Positions 5,474-55,900 of a stretch of 64,000 bases of DNA are shown piece by piece. Positions within the stretch are counted from its first letter, which is position 1; each line of letters opens with the position of its first letter. Location of the stretch: positions 64,001 through 128,000 of the IMG/VR virus record IMGVR_UViG_3300025466_000012; one strand, written 5' to 3'. A program made the position numbers and the translations under genes. The DNA comes from a virus. Under the pieces are notes generated by a model. It did not search any database, was not told the DNA's origin, and saw nothing but the letters and a program-made list of their open reading frames with translations.

Positions 5474-6061
5474 ATGAAATCGTTATTGTTAGCATTATTA
5501 GTAGTAACAGGGGCCGCACAAGCTTCTAACAACTGGACCGGACTAGCTGGTCCAGTGACCAATTCCACTGGATTATGCTGGAGAAACAGTGCATGGACAC
5601 CGGCCACAGCCGAAACCAACTGCGACGGAGCCACACAGCCAGCGATCACAAAATCTGCCGAGCCTGTTGTTGTGCCCAAAGTTGAAAAATCAGTCGCAAT
5701 CGTGCAATTGCCTCCAGTGACATATTTGGCACAGTCCTTGTTCGATTTTGACCGTGCCGTGATCAAACCACAAGGTCTTCACACTCTTGATCAATTGGTA
5801 AAACGGTTAAAATCGGTCCATGTTGACAGCGTGATCGTGGTGGGACACACCGACAGTGTGGGCACCGATGCTTACAACATGCGATTGGGGCAACGACGAG
5901 CTCGAGCAGTGGCTGATTATCTGATCGGGCAAGGCATAGAGGCCAATCGTGTGTTTGCTGACAGCAAAGGCGAACGCGAGCCAGCTAGCACCAACAGCAC
6001 AGCATATGGTCGTTCCATGAATCGACGAGTGGTTGTAGAAGTCTACGGAACAGCCGACTGA
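5474..6061 (+). CDS. ompA: OmpA-family outer membrane protein (peptidoglycan-binding C-terminal domain)
   Basis: Signal peptide; betaproteobacterial-type GLCWRN motif; FDFDRAVIK, GHTDSVG..YNMRLGQRRA, NRRVVVEV motifs. Confidence 0.9.
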   Translation: MKSLLLALLVVTGAAQASNNWTGLAGPVTNSTGLCWRNSAWTPATAETNCDGATQPAITKSAEPVVVPKVEKSVAIVQLPPVTYLAQSLFDFDRAVIKPQGLHTLDQLVKRLKSVHVDSVIVVGHTDSVGTDAYNMRLGQRRARAVADYLIGQGIEANRVFADSKGEREPASTNSTAYGRSMNRRVVVEVYGTAD

Positions 6062-6150
6062 TGGCCTATTCAGAAAAGTTACTCGATCATTATGAGAATC
6101 CACGCAATGTGGGTTCTTTTGCCAAAGACGAGGAAGGCATAGGCACCTGA
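6061..6150 (+). pseudogene. iscU: orphaned 5' stub of iscU (29 codons: MAYSEKLLDHYENPRNVGSFAKDEEGIGT*)
   Basis: Translated by hand; matches the N-terminus of IscU and of the ORF at 6816; ATG overlaps the ompA stop (TGATG). Confidence 0.9.
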
Positions 6151-6226
6151 ATTAAAAAACGTGTATAATCTTAATATAGGCATTTATAAATGACCACATA
6201 CAGGTACTCCAAGACTAAATACTTAT

Positions 6227-6826
6227 ATGAAAAGCAAGTATGGTTTAATTAAAAAATGTCTTCATTGTAACCAAGATTTTGAAACAAAACCTAGATACTT
6301 AGAGTATTGTTCAACTCCTTGTAAAAATCCAATCAATCGTCCTGGAAACACTGCTTGGAATAAAGGTATTAAACTTACTAACGAACAAAAGTCTAAATTA
6401 AATATCGAAGGTCTTAAAAAAGGACACGGTTGGAATAAAGGTTTACCAAACAAAAGACAGAGTCAAAAATGGAAAGAAAATAATCCTAATGCAGACGGCA
6501 AATTAAATAATCTAAGAACTAAAAAACCTTGTAACGATGCTCTCAAACTTTATCGAGGAAAAGTTCGTTATGCTACATATAGAACTATTAAAGAAATGAA
6601 AGTTAATAATGAGTGGGTTCCTGTGTTTGGCAAATATAAACATAGTTGGCAAATAGATCATATCATTCCTATAGTTCAAGGGTTTGAATTGGGAATAGAT
6701 CCCTATTTACTTGGTAGTAAAAAAAATATACAATTTATTAAAGGTGAAGAAAACAGATCCAAGTGGGATAGTTTTCAAACTAACGATGTAATAGAGTCAA
6801 TAACAGGAGAAACATATGGCTTATAG
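6227..6826 (+). mobile_element. free-standing HNH homing endonuclease
   Basis: WQIDHIIP...N...EENRSK HNH motif; AWNKG DNA-binding repeats; CxxC pair; AT-rich; own TAAATA at 6216-6221. Confidence 0.8.
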
Positions 6827-8222
6827 TGATGCTGTTTTGGATCATTACGAAAATCCAAGAAATGTGGGATCGTTTAAGAAGGGTGACGAGGGTGTTGGAG
6901 TTGGACTTGTGGGGGCACCTAGTTGTGGAGATGTTTTACAGTTAAGTATAAAGGTAAATGATGTTGGAATTATTACAGACGCCCGGTTTAAAACTTACGG
7001 CTGTTTAACTAGTAATGCTCCTGTTAATACTCCAACCTGCATTAAAAAAATAAAAGATTTAAAAATCGGCGACGAGGTGTTGGCCTGGAACGGTGAAAAA
7101 ATTGTTAATCAAAAAATACAAAATATAATTAAACATTCGGTTGATGTTGATGAGTTGTTGATTATTACTTTTAAACGCGAGACGAGTAGAAAAAATACCA
7201 ATCCTGGCACCTTCTCATTAATTTGCACAAAAGAACATATATTTTGGAATGCCGATAATACACCAGTAGAAGCACAACAACTACAAGTAGGTCAAGAGTT
7301 GTATGAAATAACCGAACACGAGTTACGAATTCTTACAAATAATAGACATCGCACAGAACTCAAACAAAAAAATAGCAATAGAATGAAAGAATGGAATCAA
7401 ATTTTTGATCATTCAGTATTACCACAAAATCAATCCGGGTATGTGTGTAAAGATTTAGAAACCAAAAAGAAAAAATCTAGGATTGCTTCTTTAAAAAATT
7501 GGAAAGATTCTGATTATGTCAAAAAATGGCAACAGGGAATGGCACGAAGAGATTGGTCTAAACCTACTAGTATTGAACAAAAATATATTGATTTATTTGA
7601 AGAAAACAATGTAGCAATAAAATGGAGTGCTGGAAAGATATGGATTCAAACTGATGCAGGACCAGCAAGCCCAGATTTTATTGTTCCTGGTAAGAAAAAA
7701 TGCATAGAAGTGTATACAAAGCGTATGCCCAAATTCATGCAAGATAGGTCAGAAGAATCAAATTATGTAGTGAATCGTCGCAAACAGTTGGCCACAGCCG
7801 GCTACGATTCATTATTTTTAGCAATAGAAGATATTGATAAATCATTGTCAGAAGTGCAAAATTTCATTCATAACGGAATGAAAATTGTAGATGTTTCACC
7901 AATTACTCATTTAAATCAGTTACGCGGTTGTGAAAGAGATGGAAAATCAGTTGTGGTATATGATTTAAAATTAGAGGGTGGAGCTCATGTGTTTTTCTCT
8001 AACAGAGTTGGGTCACATAATTGTGGATCGGCTATTGCATCATCCAGTCTTATCACTGAATGGGTCAAAGGGAAAACACTGGACGAAGCAGGAAGCATTA
8101 AGAACAGCCAAATTGCTGAAGAGTTGGCGCTCCCGCCCGTCAAAATACATTGTAGCATATTGGCAGAATCCGCCATTACAGCGGCAATTGACGACTATAA
8201 GAAAAGACATAACCTAACATAG
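6816..8222 (+). CDS. iscU: Fe-S cluster scaffold IscU interrupted by an intein
   Basis: N-extein to FKTYG (62 aa) plus C-extein CGSAIASSS...LPPVKIHC (66 aa) gives 128-aa IscU with C37, D39, C63, H105, C106. Confidence 0.95.
   Translation: MAYSDAVLDHYENPRNVGSFKKGDEGVGVGLVGAPSCGDVLQLSIKVNDVGIITDARFKTYGCLTSNAPVNTPTCIKKIKDLKIGDEVLAWNGEKIVNQKIQNIIKHSVDVDELLIITFKRETSRKNTNPGTFSLICTKEHIFWNADNTPVEAQQLQVGQELYEITEHELRILTNNRHRTELKQKNSNRMKEWNQIFDHSVLPQNQSGYVCKDLETKKKKSRIASLKNWKDSDYVKKWQQGMARRDWSKPTSIEQKYIDLFEENNVAIKWSAGKIWIQTDAGPASPDFIVPGKKKCIEVYTKRMPKFMQDRSEESNYVVNRRKQLATAGYDSLFLAIEDIDKSLSEVQNFIHNGMKIVDVSPITHLNQLRGCERDGKSVVVYDLKLEGGAHVFFSNRVGSHNCGSAIASSSLITEWVKGKTLDEAGSIKNSQIAEELALPPVKIHCSILAESAITAAIDDYKKRHNLT
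7002..8021 (+). mobile_element. 340-aa intein with Vsr/DUF559-like (PD-(D/E)XK) endonuclease domain
   Basis: Starts C (CLTSN), block B TKEH, block F VYDL, ends HN before +1 Cys; internal PTSIEQ...SPDFIVPGKKKCIEVY. Confidence 0.92.
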
Positions 8223-8248
8223 AACAAATAACTTTGCTAAATAAAGTT

Positions 8249-8995
8249 ATGAATAGGTGTAAATGTGGTTGTGGAATATCACTTAGAAAAGATAATAGAA
8301 CTGGATACCAAAAAGGTCATAAACCATGCCCTATTTGCGGTACACTGATAAAGGGCTCAAGTATAGAGTGCTGTTCAAAATCTTGCTCTGCTAAACTACA
8401 CTGGCAAAGAAATCCAGATATGGCAGAATCTAGAACCTGGAATGCTGAACGATATGCTACTAGAGAACAGAATAGAGATACTTGGGTTAAAAACTTGTCA
8501 AATGCTTGCAAAGGTAGAACTCCTTGGAATAAAGATACGCAAGGATTACAAGTAGCGTGGAATAAAGGGTTACCTGGTAATTTTAAGGGAAAGAGGCACA
8601 GTTCTGATTATATTGAAAAAGTTAAAAAGACCAATCTTGAAAGATATGGTGTAGAAAATGTTGGACATTTTGCTAAAACTTCTCCTCGTAGTAAAAAAGA
8701 AAAATCTCTAGAAACAATTTTAATTGATTATGAGATCAATGTTAAAATTGGAAAATACAAACCAGATTATGTGAATGAATCAACTAAACACATAATAGAA
8801 ATTTATGGTGATTACTGGCATTGTAATCCAAAATTATTCAATAAAGATTTTTATCATCCTCAGCTGAAAAAGACAGCCGAAGAAAAATGGTTATTAGATT
8901 TAACTAGACAACAGTATTTTGAATCTTTAGGATACACAGTAGAAATAATATGGGAAAGCGAATTAGATGATTACCGTAACCGACACGGCCAGTAA
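8249..8995 (+). mobile_element. free-standing Vsr/DUF559-like homing endonuclease
   Basis: Cys-rich N-terminus, PWNK/AWNKG repeats, KPDYV...IIEIYGDYWHCNP; TAAATA at 8238-8243; AT-rich. Confidence 0.8.
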
Positions 8996-9293
8996 AAAGA
9001 TTGCGCAGAATCTCCAACGCCGCGGACACGGTGTGGGTATCCGAGTGGGTGTGCGCACCACTGGGTGTTCGGGCTTGGCCTATGTGTTGGAATATATAGA
9101 TGACATAACCAAGACTTCTGGGGCCATCGATCATGCTCATGACGATTTTGTCATAAGAATAGACCAACGTGATATTGCCTATCTCGAAGGCATGACCATA
9201 GACTATGTGCGTCAAGGACTCAACGAAGGATTTGAATTCGTGAATCCCAACGAACGGGATCGTTGCGGGTGTGGAGAAAGTTTTCGCGTATGA
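8967..9293 (+). CDS. iscA: A-type Fe-S carrier IscA (HesB family)
   Basis: VRTTGCSGLAY and FVNPNERDRCGCGESF motifs. Confidence 0.95.
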   Translation: MITVTDTASKKIAQNLQRRGHGVGIRVGVRTTGCSGLAYVLEYIDDITKTSGAIDHAHDDFVIRIDQRDIAYLEGMTIDYVRQGLNEGFEFVNPNERDRCGCGESFRV

Positions 9294-9958
9294 AAATCTG
9301 CATAGTAGGATTTCCTAGATCTAGAAGTAGTCTTCTTTTAGAAGCTATCGGAAATCATCATGGAATACCTATTTTGGGTCAAGACTTGGAACAGATTGTT
9401 AGCTTACCTAACATAGCCCCACACTCTGAGCAGTACATGAAATTGCTGGCTGGAATACTAACCAAACCGGTTGGAGTAATAAGATTACATCCTGCTCAGC
9501 TTGCATACAAAAAAATCATCTGCGAATTTGACCTGTTTAATTTTGAACAGTACACCCACATCTATCTAACTGCTAGACGGTGTATAGCAGATGCAATCAG
9601 CAGCAATTTGGTAGCCCGCCATCTAAATATGTGGAACTACAATCAAGATAATCCGTCTCTCGAATTTGTGGAGCCTATCGAACTAACCGAGCAATATCAC
9701 AAAGATGTAAAACATTATGTGTATAGCGAGCATATTATGGCCGAATTACAATCGTATTTCTTGAATAAAAATATTAAATTCACACAGTTATACTATGAGG
9801 ATATTCCAGAATTTGTTAGAGACAATCTTGGAAATACCGATGTGTCTCATGTGAAGACCAATTATCAATACAGTACCATAATTAAAAACTACAATAGCAT
9901 AATGCAGTTATACCATATCTACAAAGAACAGTTACAACAGTTGACATTGACGCAGTGA
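9290..9958 (+). CDS. sulfotransferase-like protein
   Basis: IVGFPRSRSSLL resembles the 5'-PSB loop (G.PRSGTS); LYYED motif. Confidence 0.55.
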   Translation: MKICIVGFPRSRSSLLLEAIGNHHGIPILGQDLEQIVSLPNIAPHSEQYMKLLAGILTKPVGVIRLHPAQLAYKKIICEFDLFNFEQYTHIYLTARRCIADAISSNLVARHLNMWNYNQDNPSLEFVEPIELTEQYHKDVKHYVYSEHIMAELQSYFLNKNIKFTQLYYEDIPEFVRDNLGNTDVSHVKTNYQYSTIIKNYNSIMQLYHIYKEQLQQLTLTQ

Positions 9959-9970
9959 TAGTGTTATAAT
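9941..9970 (+). promoter_or_regulatory. sigma70-type promoter, probably leaderless transcript
   Basis: TTGACA-18-TATAAT, ATG 6 nt downstream. Confidence 0.65.
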
Positions 9971-9976
9971 AACACA

Positions 9977-10693
9977 ATGTACAATCCTCGATTCAATTAC
10001 CAACCCATACCCAGAGAAACTGTGGATGGTCGACGCTTGTATGCCACACCCGATGGCGGTCGACTGCCCAGCGTGACTACCATACTGGAGGCCACCAAAC
10101 CTGAAGAGAAACGCCAGGCATTGCAAAACTGGCGCAATCGTGTGGGGCATACACAGGCACAGGCCATCACGACTGAAGCGGCCAATAGAGGCACCAGGAT
10201 GCACAAGTATCTGGAAGATTATACAAAAACAGGTGCCATTGCTGATCCTGGATCCAATCCTTATAGCCAACAAAGCCATACCATGGCACAGACTATTATA
10301 ACAAACGGTCTGTGCCACGTGAGCGAGGTCTGGGGCTATGAGGTTCCGCTGTATTTTCCTGGCATCTATGCCGGAACCACGGATGCCGCTGGTCTACATC
10401 TGTATCAACCGAGCATTCTGGATTACAAGCAGACCAACAAGCCCAAACGACGTGAGTGGATTGAGGACTATTTCTTGCAACTGTGTGCCTACGCCGAAGC
10501 GCACAATGCAGTACATGGCACCGACATACAAAAAGGTGTGGTACTCATGTGTGTCAAACCCGAGATGGATGACCAAGGTAACTTGATCACTCAGCCGCAA
10601 TATCAAGAATTTGTCATTGAGGGCGCCGAGTTTGAACTGTATCGCCAGCTATGGTGGCACAGGGTTGAACAGTACTATCTAGCGAATCACTGA
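9977..10693 (+). CDS. PD-(D/E)XK exonuclease
   Basis: LPSVTTIL, RGTRMH, EVPL...YAGTTD...ILDYKQ, QLCAYA motifs. Confidence 0.85.
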   Translation: MYNPRFNYQPIPRETVDGRRLYATPDGGRLPSVTTILEATKPEEKRQALQNWRNRVGHTQAQAITTEAANRGTRMHKYLEDYTKTGAIADPGSNPYSQQSHTMAQTIITNGLCHVSEVWGYEVPLYFPGIYAGTTDAAGLHLYQPSILDYKQTNKPKRREWIEDYFLQLCAYAEAHNAVHGTDIQKGVVLMCVKPEMDDQGNLITQPQYQEFVIEGAEFELYRQLWWHRVEQYYLANH

Positions 10694-50416: not shown

Positions 50417-52984
50417 TTACCCTGCGTTGTATGTGCGCCATGTTGAGCCATTATAGAACAGGCCAAAGCTCTGGTTGTTTGTGCTGACTGTCATGTTACC
50501 GGTTGCACCCATTATGGTGCGACCATTTGGATTGACAACCAAGTTGTTTGTGGCAAAGGCGCCGCCTGCATCGGCAAAGAATATGGCACCACCGGTTGCT
50601 GGGCTGGCCGGTAGTGTGGCTGTGACCGAGTTGCTCACAGTGTTGACTCCGTATCTATTGCCGGTTGTGGCTGCAAAATTGTTGCTTTGTATAGTAAATG
50701 CGGCTTCACCGGCACTGGCCTGTATGCCAGTCAACTGACTACCGTTACCCAAGATATAGTTACCGGTGATGTTTCCAACTGCACTGATACCAGTCTTGGA
50801 AAATTCTGCCACAATATTGGCTGTGTTGCTACCATCGGCTATGATCCGCACCACACCGTTGGCTTCGTTGGTACCAATCACCAAGTTACCGGTCTGACCA
50901 TTTCCGGTGCCTTGTACATACATATAGCCATCATTGGAGTTTAACGAACTGCCAAGACTGTTGTATGATCCAGGAACATAGCTGCCACCTGCAATACCCA
51001 TGTCAATAAAGTGAATGGTGTCTGACCCGTTGTCGGCTGTGGCAATATAGTCCGTGGTTGACGCGATCCCAGGATCGATATTTTGGAAATTGATCTGGCT
51101 GTAACTGTTGGCATTGCCAGAAAACTGTGCGACCACGTTGCTTGGCAAATGTGTGAACAATTGGATACCAGCATACAAAGCATTGTCGCCGCTCTGGGCA
51201 TTACCAGTCAATGAAGCCACACCAGTCAGGAATCCGCTGGCTGTTATATTGCCTGCGGCCGACACATTGCCAGGCAAAGTGGTATTACCATCAAATCCAA
51301 AGATCCAGTTGCTACCATCTACTTCGAGTCCGGTCCCCACAGTGCCAAATGCTGTGCTGAACCGATAGCTCTGTCCGGCCTGGAAGACTCCACCAGTAAT
51401 AACAATGGTGCTGGTTCCTTGATCTTGCGAAGCCACCGTAGCATTGACTACACCGGGTCCGTTGACCTTGTAACCAACCAGGTTGATGTTGTAGTTGAGA
51501 TACGGGAAAGTGCCAGTAGAACTGTTGACTCCGGATGTGTTTGTGTCGGTTTGTGTGATAGCGGCATCACCAAAGTTCGAACTGTTTGGCAGTGTCAAGT
51601 TACCGCTGGTGCCAAAAGTCCAGGTCGGTCCGTTAGTGTTGATCACGATGTTACCGCTTGGAGATGTCACATTGGCCCAGCTGAATCCGTTTATGATGTA
51701 GCTGGAATTGCCACCGCTACCGCCTCCTGGTCCAGCTACAGCCAAGAATCTGATCTGTACCACGTCACCATTGTAAGGCGCTGTGCTAAAGGTTATACTG
51801 TTGCCGGCAACATCATAGTCAACGTCGGGAGTTTGTGTAATACCGTTTATGGTCACCAACACAGTATTGGCCGTGGCCGATTGCAACAAAGTAAATGTGT
51901 TGGCAACATTGTTGCCTTCTACAGTTTGATTGATTATGCTGGTAGGTGGAATGATACCAGTCAAGTAATAGCCGTTACCATAGTAATATCCAGCAGAGAT
52001 GTTGCCGGTGGTGCTAATGGTGTTGGAGCCGAAATCAGACAAGAAAGCAGCCACATCTGAATTGCCATAGTTTCCGCCCAAGGACACCTGTGTACCGTTG
52101 GCATAATACACATCAAAAGTGTTGCCTGATAGATTCAAGTTGCCGGCCAATGACAAATTACCATCAGTGCCAAAACTCCATTCATTACCGGCGATACCAA
52201 TGACCAAATTGCCATCGGTTGTGGCTATGTTGGCATAGCTGTTGCCGTTGAAAATCTTGTTTGAACTGGCATTGATACCGGTCAACTGTGATCCATTACC
52301 AAAATAGTAATTGGCGGCAACATTGCCGGTCACATTGACCACCCCGGTGCCGTTGGCAGTGAGAGTGACATTGCCGTTGGCCAATGTGCTTGTGATGGTA
52401 TTGCCGTTGATTTTTAAATTGCCAATGACAGTATTGCCCGGCAGGTTGGTGACACCTTTGAGTCCAATGTATCTGTAGCCCGAGACATAAATCACATTAC
52501 CTGAGGTAAGACTAGCCGGTATGGTATTGCCAATAAAGTTTAACAGTCCGGCTTGGTTGTCAAAAAAGTATTCACCAGTGCCGCCGGATCCAGCAGCAAA
52601 CAATTGAGTACCAGTGGACTGTATATTGGCCGCACCAGGTGGCCCGGCATAGACCTTGACCAACCAGGTGCTTCCAAATTCAGACGGAATCCAATCGGTC
52701 AATCCGGTCAACCAGGTAGGATTCACTCCACCAATCAGGCCCACTGTAGGGTCGGCTGTACACTGTACACTGCTTCCGCCCAGATAACTTTGTGTGATAC
52801 CACTCACAGTCTGAGCTGTAGCTGGAATTTGATCACTCTGTGTCCATACTATGTCACCGGCCAACAAGGGTGGGCTGGCTATGCTTTCGTTGCTGGGTGC
52901 CTTGGGCGGATTGGTGTCGGTCTTGGCCACACCAAATAATTTTTTAACTAATAGATCAATGTATTGTGCTTGTGATATTGCCAT
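50417..52984 (-). CDS. long fibre/virion protein
   Basis: 855 aa, N/G/T-rich; GNGSQLTG repeats; LVTINGITQTPDVDY module. Confidence 0.75.
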   Translation of the reverse strand: MAISQAQYIDLLVKKLFGVAKTDTNPPKAPSNESIASPPLLAGDIVWTQSDQIPATAQTVSGITQSYLGGSSVQCTADPTVGLIGGVNPTWLTGLTDWIPSEFGSTWLVKVYAGPPGAANIQSTGTQLFAAGSGGTGEYFFDNQAGLLNFIGNTIPASLTSGNVIYVSGYRYIGLKGVTNLPGNTVIGNLKINGNTITSTLANGNVTLTANGTGVVNVTGNVAANYYFGNGSQLTGINASSNKIFNGNSYANIATTDGNLVIGIAGNEWSFGTDGNLSLAGNLNLSGNTFDVYYANGTQVSLGGNYGNSDVAAFLSDFGSNTISTTGNISAGYYYGNGYYLTGIIPPTSIINQTVEGNNVANTFTLLQSATANTVLVTINGITQTPDVDYDVAGNSITFSTAPYNGDVVQIRFLAVAGPGGGSGGNSSYIINGFSWANVTSPSGNIVINTNGPTWTFGTSGNLTLPNSSNFGDAAITQTDTNTSGVNSSTGTFPYLNYNINLVGYKVNGPGVVNATVASQDQGTSTIVITGGVFQAGQSYRFSTAFGTVGTGLEVDGSNWIFGFDGNTTLPGNVSAAGNITASGFLTGVASLTGNAQSGDNALYAGIQLFTHLPSNVVAQFSGNANSYSQINFQNIDPGIASTTDYIATADNGSDTIHFIDMGIAGGSYVPGSYNSLGSSLNSNDGYMYVQGTGNGQTGNLVIGTNEANGVVRIIADGSNTANIVAEFSKTGISAVGNITGNYILGNGSQLTGIQASAGEAAFTIQSNNFAATTGNRYGVNTVSNSVTATLPASPATGGAIFFADAGGAFATNNLVVNPNGRTIMGATGNMTVSTNNQSFGLFYNGSTWRTYNAG

Positions 52985-52985
52985 A

Positions 52986-55900
52986 TTATGGAGCCGCCTG
53001 TATATTTAATGCAGTTACTGACTGCCCAGATGTGAGTAAGATCCTTACATAAATTTCGTTGTTGGTAGCACTGCTGCTACTGACTGTACCAAAGGTACAA
53101 GTATATATTTTGCTCACGTTGCTTTGAGCTGTATTGGGCACAACTGCTCCGCCCGACGCACAACCATTTGAACCATTGCCACCGGCTCCTATGTTGGCAC
53201 CCGGAACACCTGCTCCGGCATAGTTCTGTGTCATGTCCAACCATCCGTTTAGTGTGCTGGTGCTGTCAATTTGGCTACCTGGCAGGGCCACCCACATGCC
53301 GGCCACTGTGCCCAGATATCTGATGGCAAACTGGCTGACCGGTGTCCGGGTGAACTTGAATGTAAAGTATTGGTTGGCCCCTTGGCTGCTGAGATTTGGA
53401 CCTGCTGGCAAATATCCTGACGAATAGTTGGTGGTGTCATATTTGAGCACACCGGCCGAACCTGATCCAACTACCACAGCATCATAGGTCTGTAATGGGC
53501 CTGTTTGGCTGTTGAACTGTGCTTCGCTACCGGTATAGGTCGGAGTGTTCGTGCTTCCAGGGTTTACAATACGATAGCCCACTGCCGAACCTGAGCCGGT
53601 AGTATTGGCCGCGATCACGATGTTGCCTTCGTCAATGGCTGTGACATTGCCGGTCTTGTACAGTACTGTACCGCTTGGTGTAAATGTATTGGTCGTAGCG
53701 TTGTAACTGTTGGTCACTGTGACAGTAGGTCCTGAAGCACTGCTACCAAATCCGGAAATTATGGCCGCTGTGGTGTTGGCAGTGGCGTTACCAGAACTGA
53801 CCAGATAATTTTGTGACAGCGGTGTGGTTATGTTGGCAGCCGCATAAGTGACCGTGGCCGGAGCCGCAAACGCACCGCCGGCTGTGGTAGCACTGGTAAG
53901 ATTGTTGCTGTCCGGATACATGTTGGCACTGAGACGATTGACCTGAAATCCAATGTTGAAGTTGGTACCGTTGTTGTAGTGTGGTATAGTGCTAGAATAG
54001 GTCAGGCTAGGGCTAGCACAGGCCACAAACGTGGTCGAACTGAACTGTGGTGCTGCCGCAGTACTTGCGTCATAGTACCAGTAAGGCGTATTGGTATTGC
54101 CGGCCACATTGTCGCTCAAATAAACTTCGTTCCAGCCCGATGGAGCACCGTTGCCGCTGATGGCCGAACTAAACACATACCAGAAACCGGCCGTGATTGA
54201 TGAATTGGCAGAATGATAATCGTAATTGTTGGTGACTACCAGATTTCCTCCGTAAGTGCCATTGGCACTTGGCGAAGCACTGGTGTAAAATGAAGCATTG
54301 CCTACCGCGGCTCCGTTGCGATACGCAGTGAGCGTGCCCGAATCACCAGGGCCAGTATTGCCGATGGTGTTGGTTGTGTAAATGGAATTTCTTACAGCAG
54401 ACACAGTGGTTCCGGCCGATACAGCCTTGTTGCCGGTGGCGGTGTTGTCGGGTTGAGTAAATCCTGAACACATGCGAGCCGGTGTGGTTGACATGGTCAA
54501 GGTCAAGCTATTTCCACCTGGGAAGTTGGGTGGTGATGCTGGTACCAGTTTGCCCAACACATAGTTCAATTCGGCTATGCCATTGGTGACACTGGTGTCG
54601 GTTGTCAAAGTGACAGCGTTGCTGACCAAGTTGCCGGCTGTGGGTGTGCCCATCTGTATGCCGGTGGCTCCACCATTGGTGTTGGCCAATATAACCAAGC
54701 CTGTACCAGGCGGTTGCAAATAGATGTTGGCATTGGCCACGTTGCTGCTGATTGTAGTGTTGCTGAAAGTGATATTGCCAGTGTTGCCGCTGACAATACC
54801 GGTCAACTGACTGCCGTTACCTAAAATATAGTTGCCTGATATGTTGCCTACTGCACTCACAAACGAAACATTGCTGATTGAAAAGCCTTGACCATCAAGA
54901 TTGGCTGTCAAGTTGCCATCAAAATAACCGGTAGTACCCTGGATGCCTTGCACGCCGGTAGTGCCCTGTACTCCTTGGATACCTGTGGCGCCTTGTACGC
55001 CTTGTGTGCCTTGAGCTCCATCCACGCCTTGTATGCCTTGAGCACCTGTGGCACCTTGAGCACCTGTGGTTCCTTGAGCACCATCATTACCGGTAGTGCC
55101 TTGAGCACCTGTGGTTCCTTGAGTACCAGTAGCGCCTTGTAGTCCAGTGGTTCCTTGTGCACCTGTGGCGCCCTGTGTGCCTGTTGTGCCCTGAGGTCCT
55201 TGTATTTGTCCGACATTGGTCCAGAGACCTCCTTCGTAGACCCATAAATTTCCAGTGTCTCGTGCTATGACTCCATCGCCGGCTACTGCACCTGGGAATG
55301 CCGCATTCAATGTGGCCTGTGGATCAACTCCTACTGTAGGCACACTGCCGATAATAGCAACACTGGTACCATTGGTACCTTGGACACCTTGTGTACCGGT
55401 AGTGCCCTGTGCACCTGTGGTTCCTTGAGCTCCTGTAGTGCCTTGTATGCCCTGTGCTCCATCAACTCCTTGAATACCTGTCGTGCCTTGTGCTCCATCG
55501 TTCCCGGTAACACCCTGGATGCCTTGCGTGCCGGTAGCGCCTTGTACGCCTTGAATGCCGGTAGCGCCTTGCACGCCGTCAACTCCCTGTGCACCGGTAG
55601 CACCTTGTATGCCTTGTGTGCCTGTGGTGCCTTGAGCTCCGTTGTTGCCAGTGGCACCTTGAGACCCGTCTACACCCTGGATGCCGGTGGTGCCTTGTAT
55701 GCCTGTTGTGCCTTGTGTGCCAGTAGCACCTTGGATTCCGCTGTTGTATGGTGATCCGTTAGCATAGTTGATTGATACTTCTGAGTTTCCAGGCAGTACC
55801 AAATTGCCTGCCGAATTAAACACCCAACTGTGGCTGTTGATATTGATTTCTAAATTGCTATTTGGGTCAGCTATGTTGGCATAACTGGCGCCATTGAAAA

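What the first reader, a model, noticed from the sequence alone, without database searches (positions are those of the whole stretch)
7002..8021. Intein inserted at the Fe-S-liganding Cys63 of a phage IscU scaffold
Seen: KTYG|CLTSN...GSHN|CGSAIAS. Removing 340 aa restores a 128-aa IscU with all cluster ligands, and the +1 splicing nucleophile is the ligand Cys63 itself. Established: inteins concentrate in replication/nucleotide-metabolism proteins, and some splice conditionally on redox or metal state. Fe-S assembly inteins are mainly known from SufB; I do not recall one in IscU. Inference: scaffold activity could be gated by splicing sensitive to oxidation or Zn/Fe binding of the two terminal cysteines.
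Basis: partly seen in the sequence, partly recalled or inferred. Interest (0 to 1): 0.85.

Follow-up and report, generated by a model that had tools for sequence, protein, structure and literature searches.

The report
Mobile intein splitting phage IscU
A giant phage's own iron-sulfur scaffold gene (iscU) is interrupted, exactly in front of a cluster-binding cysteine, by a genuine self-splicing intein with a Vsr-like DNA-cutting domain; it behaves as a selfish element that hops between phages, and nothing here shows it to be a redox or metal switch.

Summary
ORF 6816..8222 (468 aa) is an IscU whose sequence is broken after Gly62 by 340 aa (7002..8021). Removing them gives a 128-aa IscU with Cys37, Asp39, Cys63, His105, Cys106 and LPPVK. 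The +1 residue is ligand Cys63.

The insert is a canonical class-1 intein: Cys1, TxxH, block-F Asp and His-Asn|Cys are invariant in 120 homologues, and the model has a HINT fold. It carries an in-frame nuclease whose closest structure is I-Bth0305I (Z 10.1).

It looks selfish and mobile:
- Syntenic giant-phage relatives have an uninterrupted FKTYG-CGSAIA site.
- Intein and extein divergence are only loosely coupled. Some pairs have 0.9% intein and 21% extein difference.
- Both the splicing and nuclease parts are under purifying selection (dN/dS about 0.06-0.09).
- Nuclease-deleted mini-inteins occur at the same site, and an unrelated mini-intein sits at Cys37.

I found no paper on an IscU intein, but over 150 sequence clusters exist in metagenomes. 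This scan has already reported the same element in other genomes, with the same verdict. Redox or metal gating remains untested speculation. Verdict: a new member of a known kind, of moderate interest.

The parts
6816..7001 (+). N-extein: IscU residues 1-62, including Cys37 and Asp39, ending in Gly62. A Shine-Dalgarno-like AGGAG lies about 8 nt upstream.
   Evidence: GC3 is 0.28-0.33, lower than the C-extein (0.42).
7002..8021 (+). Class-1 intein of 340 aa: Cys1 ... His339-Asn340.
   Evidence: Invariant C1, T76xxH79, D321, H339, N340 and +1 Cys in 120 homologues. AlphaFold model pLDDT 81; Foldseek matches to inteins and BIL domains (gp41-1 6qaz, MchDnaB-1, NpuDnaB, 2lwy), E 2.5e-5 to 1e-3.
7002..7310 (+). 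N-terminal lobe of the splicing (HINT) domain with blocks A (CLTSN) and B (LICTKEH); boundaries approximate.
   Evidence: Beta-strands at model residues 1-90. Weak Pfam Hint and PT-HINT hits over residues 1-107.
7311..7565 (+). Helical region before the nuclease core, a likely DNA-binding module (NUMOD-like by position); boundaries approximate.
   Evidence: Helices at residues 105-181 of the intein. Free-standing homologues carry NUMOD3 motifs before the same core. No Pfam hit in this sequence itself.
7566..7883 (+). Nuclease core, Vsr-like with a PD-(D/E)XK fold, with the invariant motif GPxSPDF..PGKKKCIEVYTK.
   Evidence: VIA-align best match is the I-Bth0305I catalytic domain 3r3p (Z 10.1, rmsd 3.1, 94 of 98 residues), then 3hrl and Vsr 1cw0. 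Foldseek rank 1 is also 3r3p. Profile versus PDB gives 3r3p at E 7.2e-5. E192, D225 and E236 (intein numbering) are invariant in 120 sequences.
7884..8021 (+). C-terminal lobe of the splicing domain with blocks F (VVVYDL) and G (HVFFSNRVGSHN); boundaries approximate.
   Evidence: This part is retained directly after block B in the nuclease-deleted mini-inteins.
8022..8222 (+). C-extein: +1 Cys (= IscU Cys63) to residue 128 plus the stop codon; includes LPPVK, His105 and Cys106.
6061..6150 (+). Context: orphaned 29-codon iscU 5' stub ending in TGA.
6227..6826 (+). Context: AT-rich free-standing endonuclease-like gene (putative HNH, called from motif only) directly upstream of iscU.
   Evidence: Pfam HNH E 0.076 only. 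GC 0.31. A 55% homologue sits at the same position before an intein-less iscU in L021.
8234..8995 (+). Context: free-standing Vsr-like homing-endonuclease gene between iscU and iscA.
   Evidence: TIGR00632 Vsr E 1.1e-5. PHROG homing endonuclease. An 85% homologue lies after an intein-less iscU in L016.
8967..9293 (+). Context: iscA (A-type Fe-S carrier), partner gene of iscU.
   Evidence: Pfam Fe-S_biosyn E 7e-15. Conserved next to iscU in relatives.

Best explanation
This is a selfish, mobile class-1 intein that occupies the phage's iscU gene. The gene is translated as a 468-aa precursor.

Inferred from the conserved residues and the standard mechanism, splicing proceeds in these steps:
1. 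Cys1 attacks the Gly62-Cys1 bond (N-S acyl shift, assisted by block B Thr/His).
2. The +1 Cys, the future ligand Cys63, takes over the N-extein by trans-thioesterification.
3. Asn340 cyclises, assisted by His339, and releases the intein.
4. An S-N shift gives a normal 128-aa IscU.

The unspliced precursor cannot be a proper scaffold because the cluster site is cut at Cys63.

The in-frame Vsr-like nuclease, after excision or within the precursor, is inferred to cut intein-less iscU alleles at the conserved ...TTYAARACNTAYGG|TGYGGNTCNGCNATYGC... site during co-infection. Repair then copies the intein in (homing).

The site is a ligand cysteine because such sequence is invariant. That gives the nuclease a stable target and makes imprecise loss lethal to the gene. 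It need not mean that the phage uses the intein as a sensor.
For: Shown:
- The insertion is exactly before Cys63, with complete IscU exteins.
- All splicing residues are invariant in 120 homologues of 61-100% identity.
- The model has a HINT fold.
- The nuclease core is closest to I-Bth0305I (Z 10.1; E 7.2e-5), with invariant E192, D225 and E236.
- Purifying selection acts on both parts. Median dN/dS is 0.064 for HINT and 0.090 for the nuclease region.
- Empty sites exist in syntenic relatives of the same giant-phage group (L043, L055, L012, L065). 74 of the 80 retrieved viral iscU loci are intein-less.
- The intein is less diverged than its surroundings. Against L085 the intein is 81% identical, while neighbouring genes are 36-56%. 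dN of the exteins (0.22-0.26) is 2-4 times that of the HINT part (0.06-0.10) for window versus L004, L005, L008, L084 and L085. Extein synonymous sites are saturated, while intein pS is 0.55-0.73.
- Histories are discordant. Mantel r is only 0.35. P0024/P0032 have inteins 0.9% different and exteins 21% different. P0036/P0057 have exteins 4% different and inteins 22% different.
- Nuclease-deleted mini-inteins occur at the same site (P0124, P0142, L087).
- Inteins diverged to 33-42% identity sit at the same site (P0122, P0127).
- An unrelated mini-intein sits at Cys37 (P0113, P0131, P0133).
- The same intein/nuclease lineage occurs in NrdD, radical-SAM and transglutaminase-like hosts.
Against: - No experiment: neither splicing nor DNA cleavage is shown.
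- Standard intein profiles score below their cut-offs on this sequence (Pfam Hint 22.8 versus 29.7; PT-HINT about 20 versus 27.7). No TIGRFAM intein model hit was reported.
- The His of the EDxHD motif of I-Bth0305I appears to be replaced (invariant Pro243 at the aligned position). The catalytic mechanism of the nuclease is therefore uncertain.
- Synonymous sites are close to saturation, so dN/dS values are rough.
- Extein identity saturates at 70-85% over only 128 residues, which weakens the discordance tests.
- A selfish origin does not exclude a secondary regulatory effect.
Confidence: 0.85

Rival explanations
1. A domesticated conditional switch. The +1 nucleophile is ligand Cys63, and Cys37/Cys106 lie nearby in the folded exteins. 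Zn2+, Fe2+, a nascent cluster or oxidation (a Cys1-Cys+1 disulfide) could then block trans-thioesterification. The phage scaffold would mature only under reducing or metal-appropriate conditions.
For: - Both nucleophiles are cysteines, and the +1 Cys is a metal ligand.
- There are precedents for stress-sensitive splicing in mycobacterial DnaB (PMC6195587) and for studied splicing of the Fe-S protein SufB (PMC8891592); both papers were seen.
- An invariant extra Cys75 lies next to block B within the close family.
- Chemical sensitivity of any Cys/Cys intein to Zn and oxidants is plausible from general knowledge.
Against: - The element is not fixed. Syntenic relatives work with an uninterrupted iscU.
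- Its history is only loosely tied to the host gene.
- The nuclease is strongly conserved, which serves the element and not the phage.
- Cys75 is Val in the distant same-site inteins P0127 and P0129.
- An unrelated intein at Cys37 and many inteins at catalytic residues of other proteins show that conserved sites are simply preferred targets.
- No data on splicing rates exist.
Confidence: 0.1
2. A dead insertion. The intein no longer splices and the iscU gene is a pseudogene carried passively.
For: - One relative (L006) has a TGG->TGA change in the C-extein.
- L021 shows an apparent frameshift in an intein-less iscU.
- iscU is an auxiliary gene that phages can lack.
Against: - The reading frame is open over 468 codons.
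- All splicing residues and all IscU ligands are intact.
- dN/dS is about 0.06-0.09 in the intein and about 0.08 in the exteins.
- It is the only iscU found in the 199,683-bp contig.
Confidence: 0.03
3. A bacterial-intein-like (BIL) or other HINT autoprocessing domain that cleaves rather than splices.
For: The top Foldseek matches include BIL domains (6y75, 2lwy). The best Pfam hits are Hint and PT-HINT, not Intein_splicing.
Against: - The insert lies inside a conserved host protein with both halves present.
- It has a C-terminal His-Asn followed by a Cys nucleophile, and it carries a homing nuclease. These are all features of true inteins.
- The same-site relative P0127 passes the PF14890 Intein_splicing cut-off (37.3 versus 35.8 bits).
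Confidence: 0.02

Closest known systems
Mycobacterium tuberculosis SufB (Pps1) intein (PMC8891592)
   Same: A class-1, Cys1/Cys+1 intein with a homing-endonuclease domain that interrupts an Fe-S cluster assembly protein. The host protein needs splicing to work.
   Different: - The host is SufB of the SUF system in a bacterial chromosome, not IscU in a phage.
- Its nuclease is LAGLIDADG type (from memory), not Vsr-like.
- It has been studied experimentally. Here nothing has been tested, and the +1 Cys is itself a cluster ligand.
I-Bth0305I and the Vsr-like (EDxHD) homing endonucleases of phage 'fractured genes' (PMC3239194, PMC2677866; PDB 3R3P)
   Same: - The nuclease core fold matches (Z 10.1 over 94 of 98 residues; profile E 7.2e-5).
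- A DNA-binding region precedes the catalytic core.
- The setting is phage and metagenomic.
- Relatives also occur as free-standing genes with NUMOD motifs, one of them next door at 8234..8995.
   Different: - In those papers the nuclease is a separate ORF, either in a group I intron or between the two halves of a split intein. Here it is fused in frame inside a contiguous intein.
- The Vsr-type His appears not to be conserved. The conserved motif is PDF...IEVYTK.
Phage and metagenomic mini or split inteins gp41-1 and NrdJ-1 (PDB 6QAZ, 8UBS)
   Same: The HINT splicing fold is among the best structural matches, and the source is phage.
   Different: Those are split or mini-inteins in replication and nucleotide-metabolism proteins, without an in-frame nuclease.
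Stress-responsive M. smegmatis DnaB intein 1 (PMC6195587)
   Different: That effect was shown experimentally and involves a specific non-catalytic cysteine. No such evidence exists for the IscU intein.

Membership tests
Class-1 intein (HINT superfamily) | In-frame insertion in a conserved host protein; removal restores the contiguous host sequence | tested here: met
   Exteins align to IscU 1-63 and 63-127. 74 intein-less alleles read FKTYG-CGSAIA.
Class-1 intein (HINT superfamily) | Block A Cys1/Ser1 nucleophile and block B TxxH | tested here: met
   Cys1, Thr76 and His79 (intein numbering) are invariant in 120 sequences.
Class-1 intein (HINT superfamily) | Block F Asp; block G penultimate His, terminal Asn; +1 Cys/Ser/Thr | tested here: met
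   D321, H339, N340 and the +1 Cys are invariant in 120 sequences.
Class-1 intein (HINT superfamily) | HINT fold | tested here: met
   Model pLDDT 81. Foldseek prob 1.00 to many inteins, TM (target-normalised) 0.5-0.6.
Class-1 intein (HINT superfamily) | Curated profile match above cut-off (Pfam Hint / Intein_splicing, TIGRFAM intein ends) | tested here: inconclusive
   This sequence scores Hint 22.8 against a cut-off of 29.7, and PT-HINT 19-20 against 27.7. No intein-end model was reported by NCBIfam. The same-site relative P0127 passes PF14890 (37.3 against 35.8).
Class-1 intein (HINT superfamily) | Protein splicing demonstrated | not testable with these tools
   Needs expression and mass spectrometry.
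Vsr-like / EDxHD homing endonucleases (I-Bth0305I family) | Vsr-like PD-(D/E)XK core fold and sequence relation to I-Bth0305I | tested here: met
   3r3p Z 10.1, rmsd 3.1, 94 residues; Vsr 1cw0 Z 8.4. Foldseek rank 1 is 3r3p. hmmsearch E 7.2e-5.
Vsr-like / EDxHD homing endonucleases (I-Bth0305I family) | Full EDxHD catalytic motif, including the general-base His | tested here: inconclusive
   D225 and E236 are invariant. At the position aligned to I-Bth0305I His213 the family has invariant Pro243. That alignment is from sequence only; the neighbouring gene 8234..8995 does have IEIYGDYWH.
Vsr-like / EDxHD homing endonucleases (I-Bth0305I family) | NUMOD-type DNA-binding region before the core | tested here: inconclusive
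   A helical region is present. Free-standing homologues have NUMOD3. There is no NUMOD hit in the intein itself.
Vsr-like / EDxHD homing endonucleases (I-Bth0305I family) | Cleaves the element-free allele near the insertion point | not testable with these tools
   Needs an in vitro cleavage assay.
IscU Fe-S scaffold (TIGR01999 / PF01592) | Profile above cut-off; ligands Cys37, Cys63, Cys106 plus Asp39, His105 and LPPVK | tested here: met
   TIGR01999 scores 196.1 against 192.4. PF01592 E 1.9e-46. The residues are seen.
Conditional (regulatory) intein | Fixed in a lineage and co-diverging with the host gene | tested here: not met
   Presence/absence polymorphism occurs in syntenic relatives. 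Mantel r is 0.35, with strongly discordant pairs.
Conditional (regulatory) intein | Splicing rate responds to redox or metal state | not testable with these tools
   Needs biochemistry.

The most novel reading that the evidence does not exclude
The IscU precursor folds its exteins around the intein so that Cys37, the +1 Cys and Cys106 bind Zn, Fe or a nascent cluster, or Cys1 and Cys+1 form a disulfide. Splicing, and hence supply of phage-made scaffold, would then be physiologically gated by the metal or redox state of the infected cell. This would be a post-translational sensor built from a selfish element at the very residue that senses.
Probability: 0.1. Interest if true: 0.75.

Novelty: new member of a known kind. 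Interest (0 to 1): 0.4.

Why it matters
- It adds IscU, the central Fe-S scaffold, to the proteins known to host inteins. There are two separate insertion points, both at cluster-ligand cysteines (Cys63 here, Cys37 in relatives).
- It shows the Vsr-like nuclease family fused in frame inside a contiguous intein. That is the end state predicted by the 'fractured gene' model of how nucleases enter inteins.
- With natural full-length, nuclease-deleted and empty alleles all available, it is a convenient system for two questions. One is homing among uncultivated giant phages. The other is whether an intein whose +1 nucleophile is a metal ligand splices conditionally.
- For genome annotation it explains 'long NifU-like' proteins in viromes.

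Tried and rejected
- Megablast of 6000-10000 against GenBank phages found no match.
- tblastn of the precursor against the same collection found only intein-less iscU, none with the intein.
- PHROGs gave nothing for the intein.
- BLASTP of the intein against the two flanking endonuclease genes gave only a weak 24-residue match around PDF/IEVY with 8234..8995 (E 0.058) and nothing with 6227..6826. The intein nuclease is therefore not a recent copy of either neighbour.
- Foldseek with the whole intein found only the HINT part. The nuclease had to be folded separately.
- Wobble positions of the homing site do not clearly differ between intein-plus and intein-less alleles. No co-conversion signature could be shown at that scale.
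- A scan of GTDB species genomes gave only two hits, both short or phage-like contigs inside MAGs. I have no evidence for this intein in a cellular iscU.
- Literature searches (intein+IscU, intein+NifU, inteins+iron-sulfur+phage, inteins+Fe-S assembly+metagenome, intein+jumbo phage) returned nothing on an IscU intein. InBase could not be consulted.

Full report
OBSERVATION. The window is bases 64001-128000 of a 199,683-bp IMG/VR viral contig (CheckV completeness 58%). ORF 6816..8222 (+) encodes 468 aa. The DNA reads GGC | TGT at 6999-7004 and CAT AAT | TGT at 8016-8024.

phmmer against PDB aligns residues 1-63 to IscU 1-63 and residues 403-467 to IscU 63-127 of H. influenzae and E. coli IscU. 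Pfam NifU_N hits in two stretches. TIGR01999 (IscU) passes its cut-off even with the insert present (196.1 against 192.4 bits). The spliced product would be 128 aa with Cys37, Asp39, Cys63, LPPVK, His105 and Cys106. The +1 residue is ligand Cys63. It is the only iscU in the contig, apart from a 29-codon stub.

WHAT THE INSERT IS. A word-indexed search with the insert found 152 clusters at 90% identity. All 120 listed clusters carry PF01592, are about 465 aa long and are 61-100% identical. They lie on contigs of up to 353 kb.

In 32 aligned and 120 tallied sequences the following are invariant: Cys1, Thr76-x-x-His79 (block B), Asp321 (block F), His339-Asn340 and the +1 Cys. An AlphaFold model of the intein has pLDDT 81. 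It matches inteins and BIL/hedgehog HINT domains, including gp41-1, MchDnaB-1, NpuDnaB and Mtu RecA.

Curated sequence profiles are below their cut-offs on this sequence. A 33%-identical intein at the same site passes PF14890.

The middle 200 residues were folded separately (pLDDT 90). They show a helical region followed by an alpha/beta core. The best structural match of the core is the catalytic domain of the homing endonuclease I-Bth0305I (3r3p: Z 10.1, rmsd 3.1, 94 of 98 residues). The next matches are 3hrl and Vsr. A profile of this region also finds 3r3p by sequence (E 7.2e-5).

The family motif GPxSPDF..PGKKKCIEVYTK is invariant. Glu192, Asp225 and Glu236 never change. The Vsr-type His seems not to be conserved, with Pro243 at the aligned position.

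Free-standing relatives of 200-340 aa carry NUMOD3 motifs before the same core. This is the Vsr-like (EDxHD) family described from phage 'fractured genes' and a recA intron (PMC2677866, PMC3239194). In those papers it is a separate ORF. Here it is fused in frame in a contiguous intein.

HOW IT BEHAVES. Relatives are syntenic giant-phage contigs with the gene order DUF6267 ... iscU - iscA - PD-(D/E)XK exonuclease ... RNR. Within this group some contigs carry the intein (L005, L007, L084, L085). Others have an uninterrupted site (L043 of 300 kb, L055, L012, L065 of 374 kb). Of the 80 best viral iscU loci, 5 have the intein and 74 read FKTYG-CGSAIA.

The intein is less diverged than its surroundings. 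Against L085 it is 81% identical, while neighbouring genes are 36-56%. Extein dN (0.22-0.26) is 2-4 times that of the HINT part (0.06-0.10) in five of the six comparisons with the window. Extein synonymous sites are saturated, while those of the intein are not quite (pS 0.55-0.73).

Both the splicing and the nuclease parts are under purifying selection, with median dN/dS of 0.064 and 0.090.

Across 112 precursors, intein and extein distances correlate only weakly (Mantel r 0.35). Some pairs are clearly discordant. P0024/P0032 have inteins 0.9% apart and exteins 21% apart. P0036/P0057 show the reverse, with exteins 4% apart and inteins 22% apart. Identity to the window's intein and to its exteins is uncorrelated (r -0.02).

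Nuclease-deleted mini-inteins of 155-166 aa sit at the same site (P0124, P0142, and L087 on a phage-like contig binned in a Fischerella MAG). Inteins diverged to 33-42% identity also sit at the same site (P0122, P0127, P0129). A different mini-intein sits at Cys37 in P0113, P0131 and P0133. Relatives of the same intein/nuclease occur in NrdD, radical-SAM and transglutaminase-like proteins. All of this is the pattern of a homing element going through invasion, spread and nuclease decay.

MECHANISM. The mechanism is inferred, not shown. It is standard class-1 splicing:
1. N-S acyl shift at Gly62-Cys1.
2. Trans-thioesterification to the +1 Cys.
3. Asn340 cyclisation.
4. S-N shift, giving mature IscU.

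The nuclease is inferred to cut the conserved empty site in co-infecting intein-less phages, after which repair copies the intein in. The ligand-cysteine position is explained by target conservation and by the need for a Cys nucleophile. Both IscU insertion points, Cys37 and Cys63, fit this.

Redox or metal gating is chemically conceivable. Both nucleophiles are Cys, and the +1 Cys would be a Zn/Fe ligand if the exteins fold. There are precedents for stress-sensitive inteins (PMC6195587) and for an intein in the Fe-S protein SufB (PMC8891592).

Nothing in the sequence data supports an adaptive switch. The element is polymorphic, moves horizontally and keeps its nuclease. The extra invariant Cys75 next to block B is Val in distant same-site inteins. 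I put this reading at about 0.1.

LOCAL CONTEXT. The iscU locus of this phage is a nest of mobile DNA:
- An orphaned 29-codon iscU start lies at 6061..6150 (GC3 0.45, close to the resident genes).
- An AT-rich putative HNH gene lies at 6227..6826.
- Then comes the intein-bearing iscU. Its N-extein has low GC3 (0.28-0.33) and its C-extein looks resident (0.42).
- A free-standing Vsr-like endonuclease gene lies at 8234..8995, before iscA.

Homologues of each flanking endonuclease gene occur next to intein-less iscU genes in other phages (L021, L016). L084 has the intein without either of them. The three elements are therefore independent.

NOVELTY. I found no paper describing an IscU or NifU intein. 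InBase could not be checked. None of the GenBank phage records searched carry it. Yet it is common in metagenomes, including sequences sourced from NCBI.

This scan has already reported the same element, and other IscU inteins at Cys37, on other DNA with the same conclusion. My tests were made independently and agree with those reports. It is a new member (a new host protein and site) of a well-known kind, with an unusual nuclease type. Interest is moderate.

Noticed in passing
window 6061-6150 (with 6227-6826): A 29-codon duplicate of an iscU 5' end (MAYSEKLLDHYENPRNVGSFAKDEEGIGT*) lies upstream of an AT-rich putative HNH gene. Its start overlaps the stop of the preceding OmpA-like gene. The stub has resident-like GC3 (0.45), while the functional N-extein has GC3 0.28-0.33. 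This suggests the incoming cassette brought its own iscU start.
   Followed up: partly
window 8234-8995: A free-standing Vsr-like homing-endonuclease gene (IEIYGDYWH motif; TIGR00632 E 1e-5) lies between iscU and iscA, overlapping the iscA start. An 85% homologue lies after an intein-less iscU in L016. It is of the same nuclease superfamily as the intein's domain but is not a close copy (BLASTP E 0.058).
   Followed up: partly
proteins P0113, P0131, P0133: Some IscU precursors carry a second, unrelated mini-intein inserted before the first ligand Cys37 (GAPA|CF.. ...N|CGDV). Both early ligand cysteines of IscU are therefore intein sites.
   Followed up: partly
L088 3944-5263 (P0131); also P0133, P0142: Intein-bearing ISCU proteins with mitochondrial-type N-terminal extensions. 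One lies on a compact contig with mitochondrial-carrier, Rpb7-like, ThiF and MoaA genes. A giant virus or a small eukaryotic genome is possible.
   Followed up: no
L087 2812-3663: A contig assigned to a Fischerella MAG has the phage synteny iscU-iscA-exonuclease. It carries a 155-aa mini-intein at Cys63 with the nuclease cleanly deleted. It is probably a phage contig binned with a cyanobacterium.
   Followed up: partly
L006 5237-5239: In one intein-bearing relative the conserved Trp76 codon of the C-extein is TGA (TGG->TGA). This could be a pseudogene, a sequencing error or TGA read as Trp.
   Followed up: no
L021 4001-4190: An intein-less iscU directly downstream of a homologue (55%) of the putative HNH gene. 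tblastn matches it in two frames around codon 38, which suggests a frameshift near Cys37.
   Followed up: no
L090 730-2703 (same genome, G000:C1 about 51260-53233, outside the window): A helicase-like ORF ends, right after its DExx box (VIVDEC|FAGDSKVLTPDG...), in what looks like the N-half of a split intein (PF14890, 35.9 bits). A free-standing 303-aa endonuclease-like ORF follows. This is the 'fractured gene' layout of Dassa et al. 2009.
   Followed up: no
window 6150-8960: A 2.8-kb trough of 27-37% GC in a genome of about 46-50% GC coincides with the three mobile elements around iscU.
   Followed up: yes
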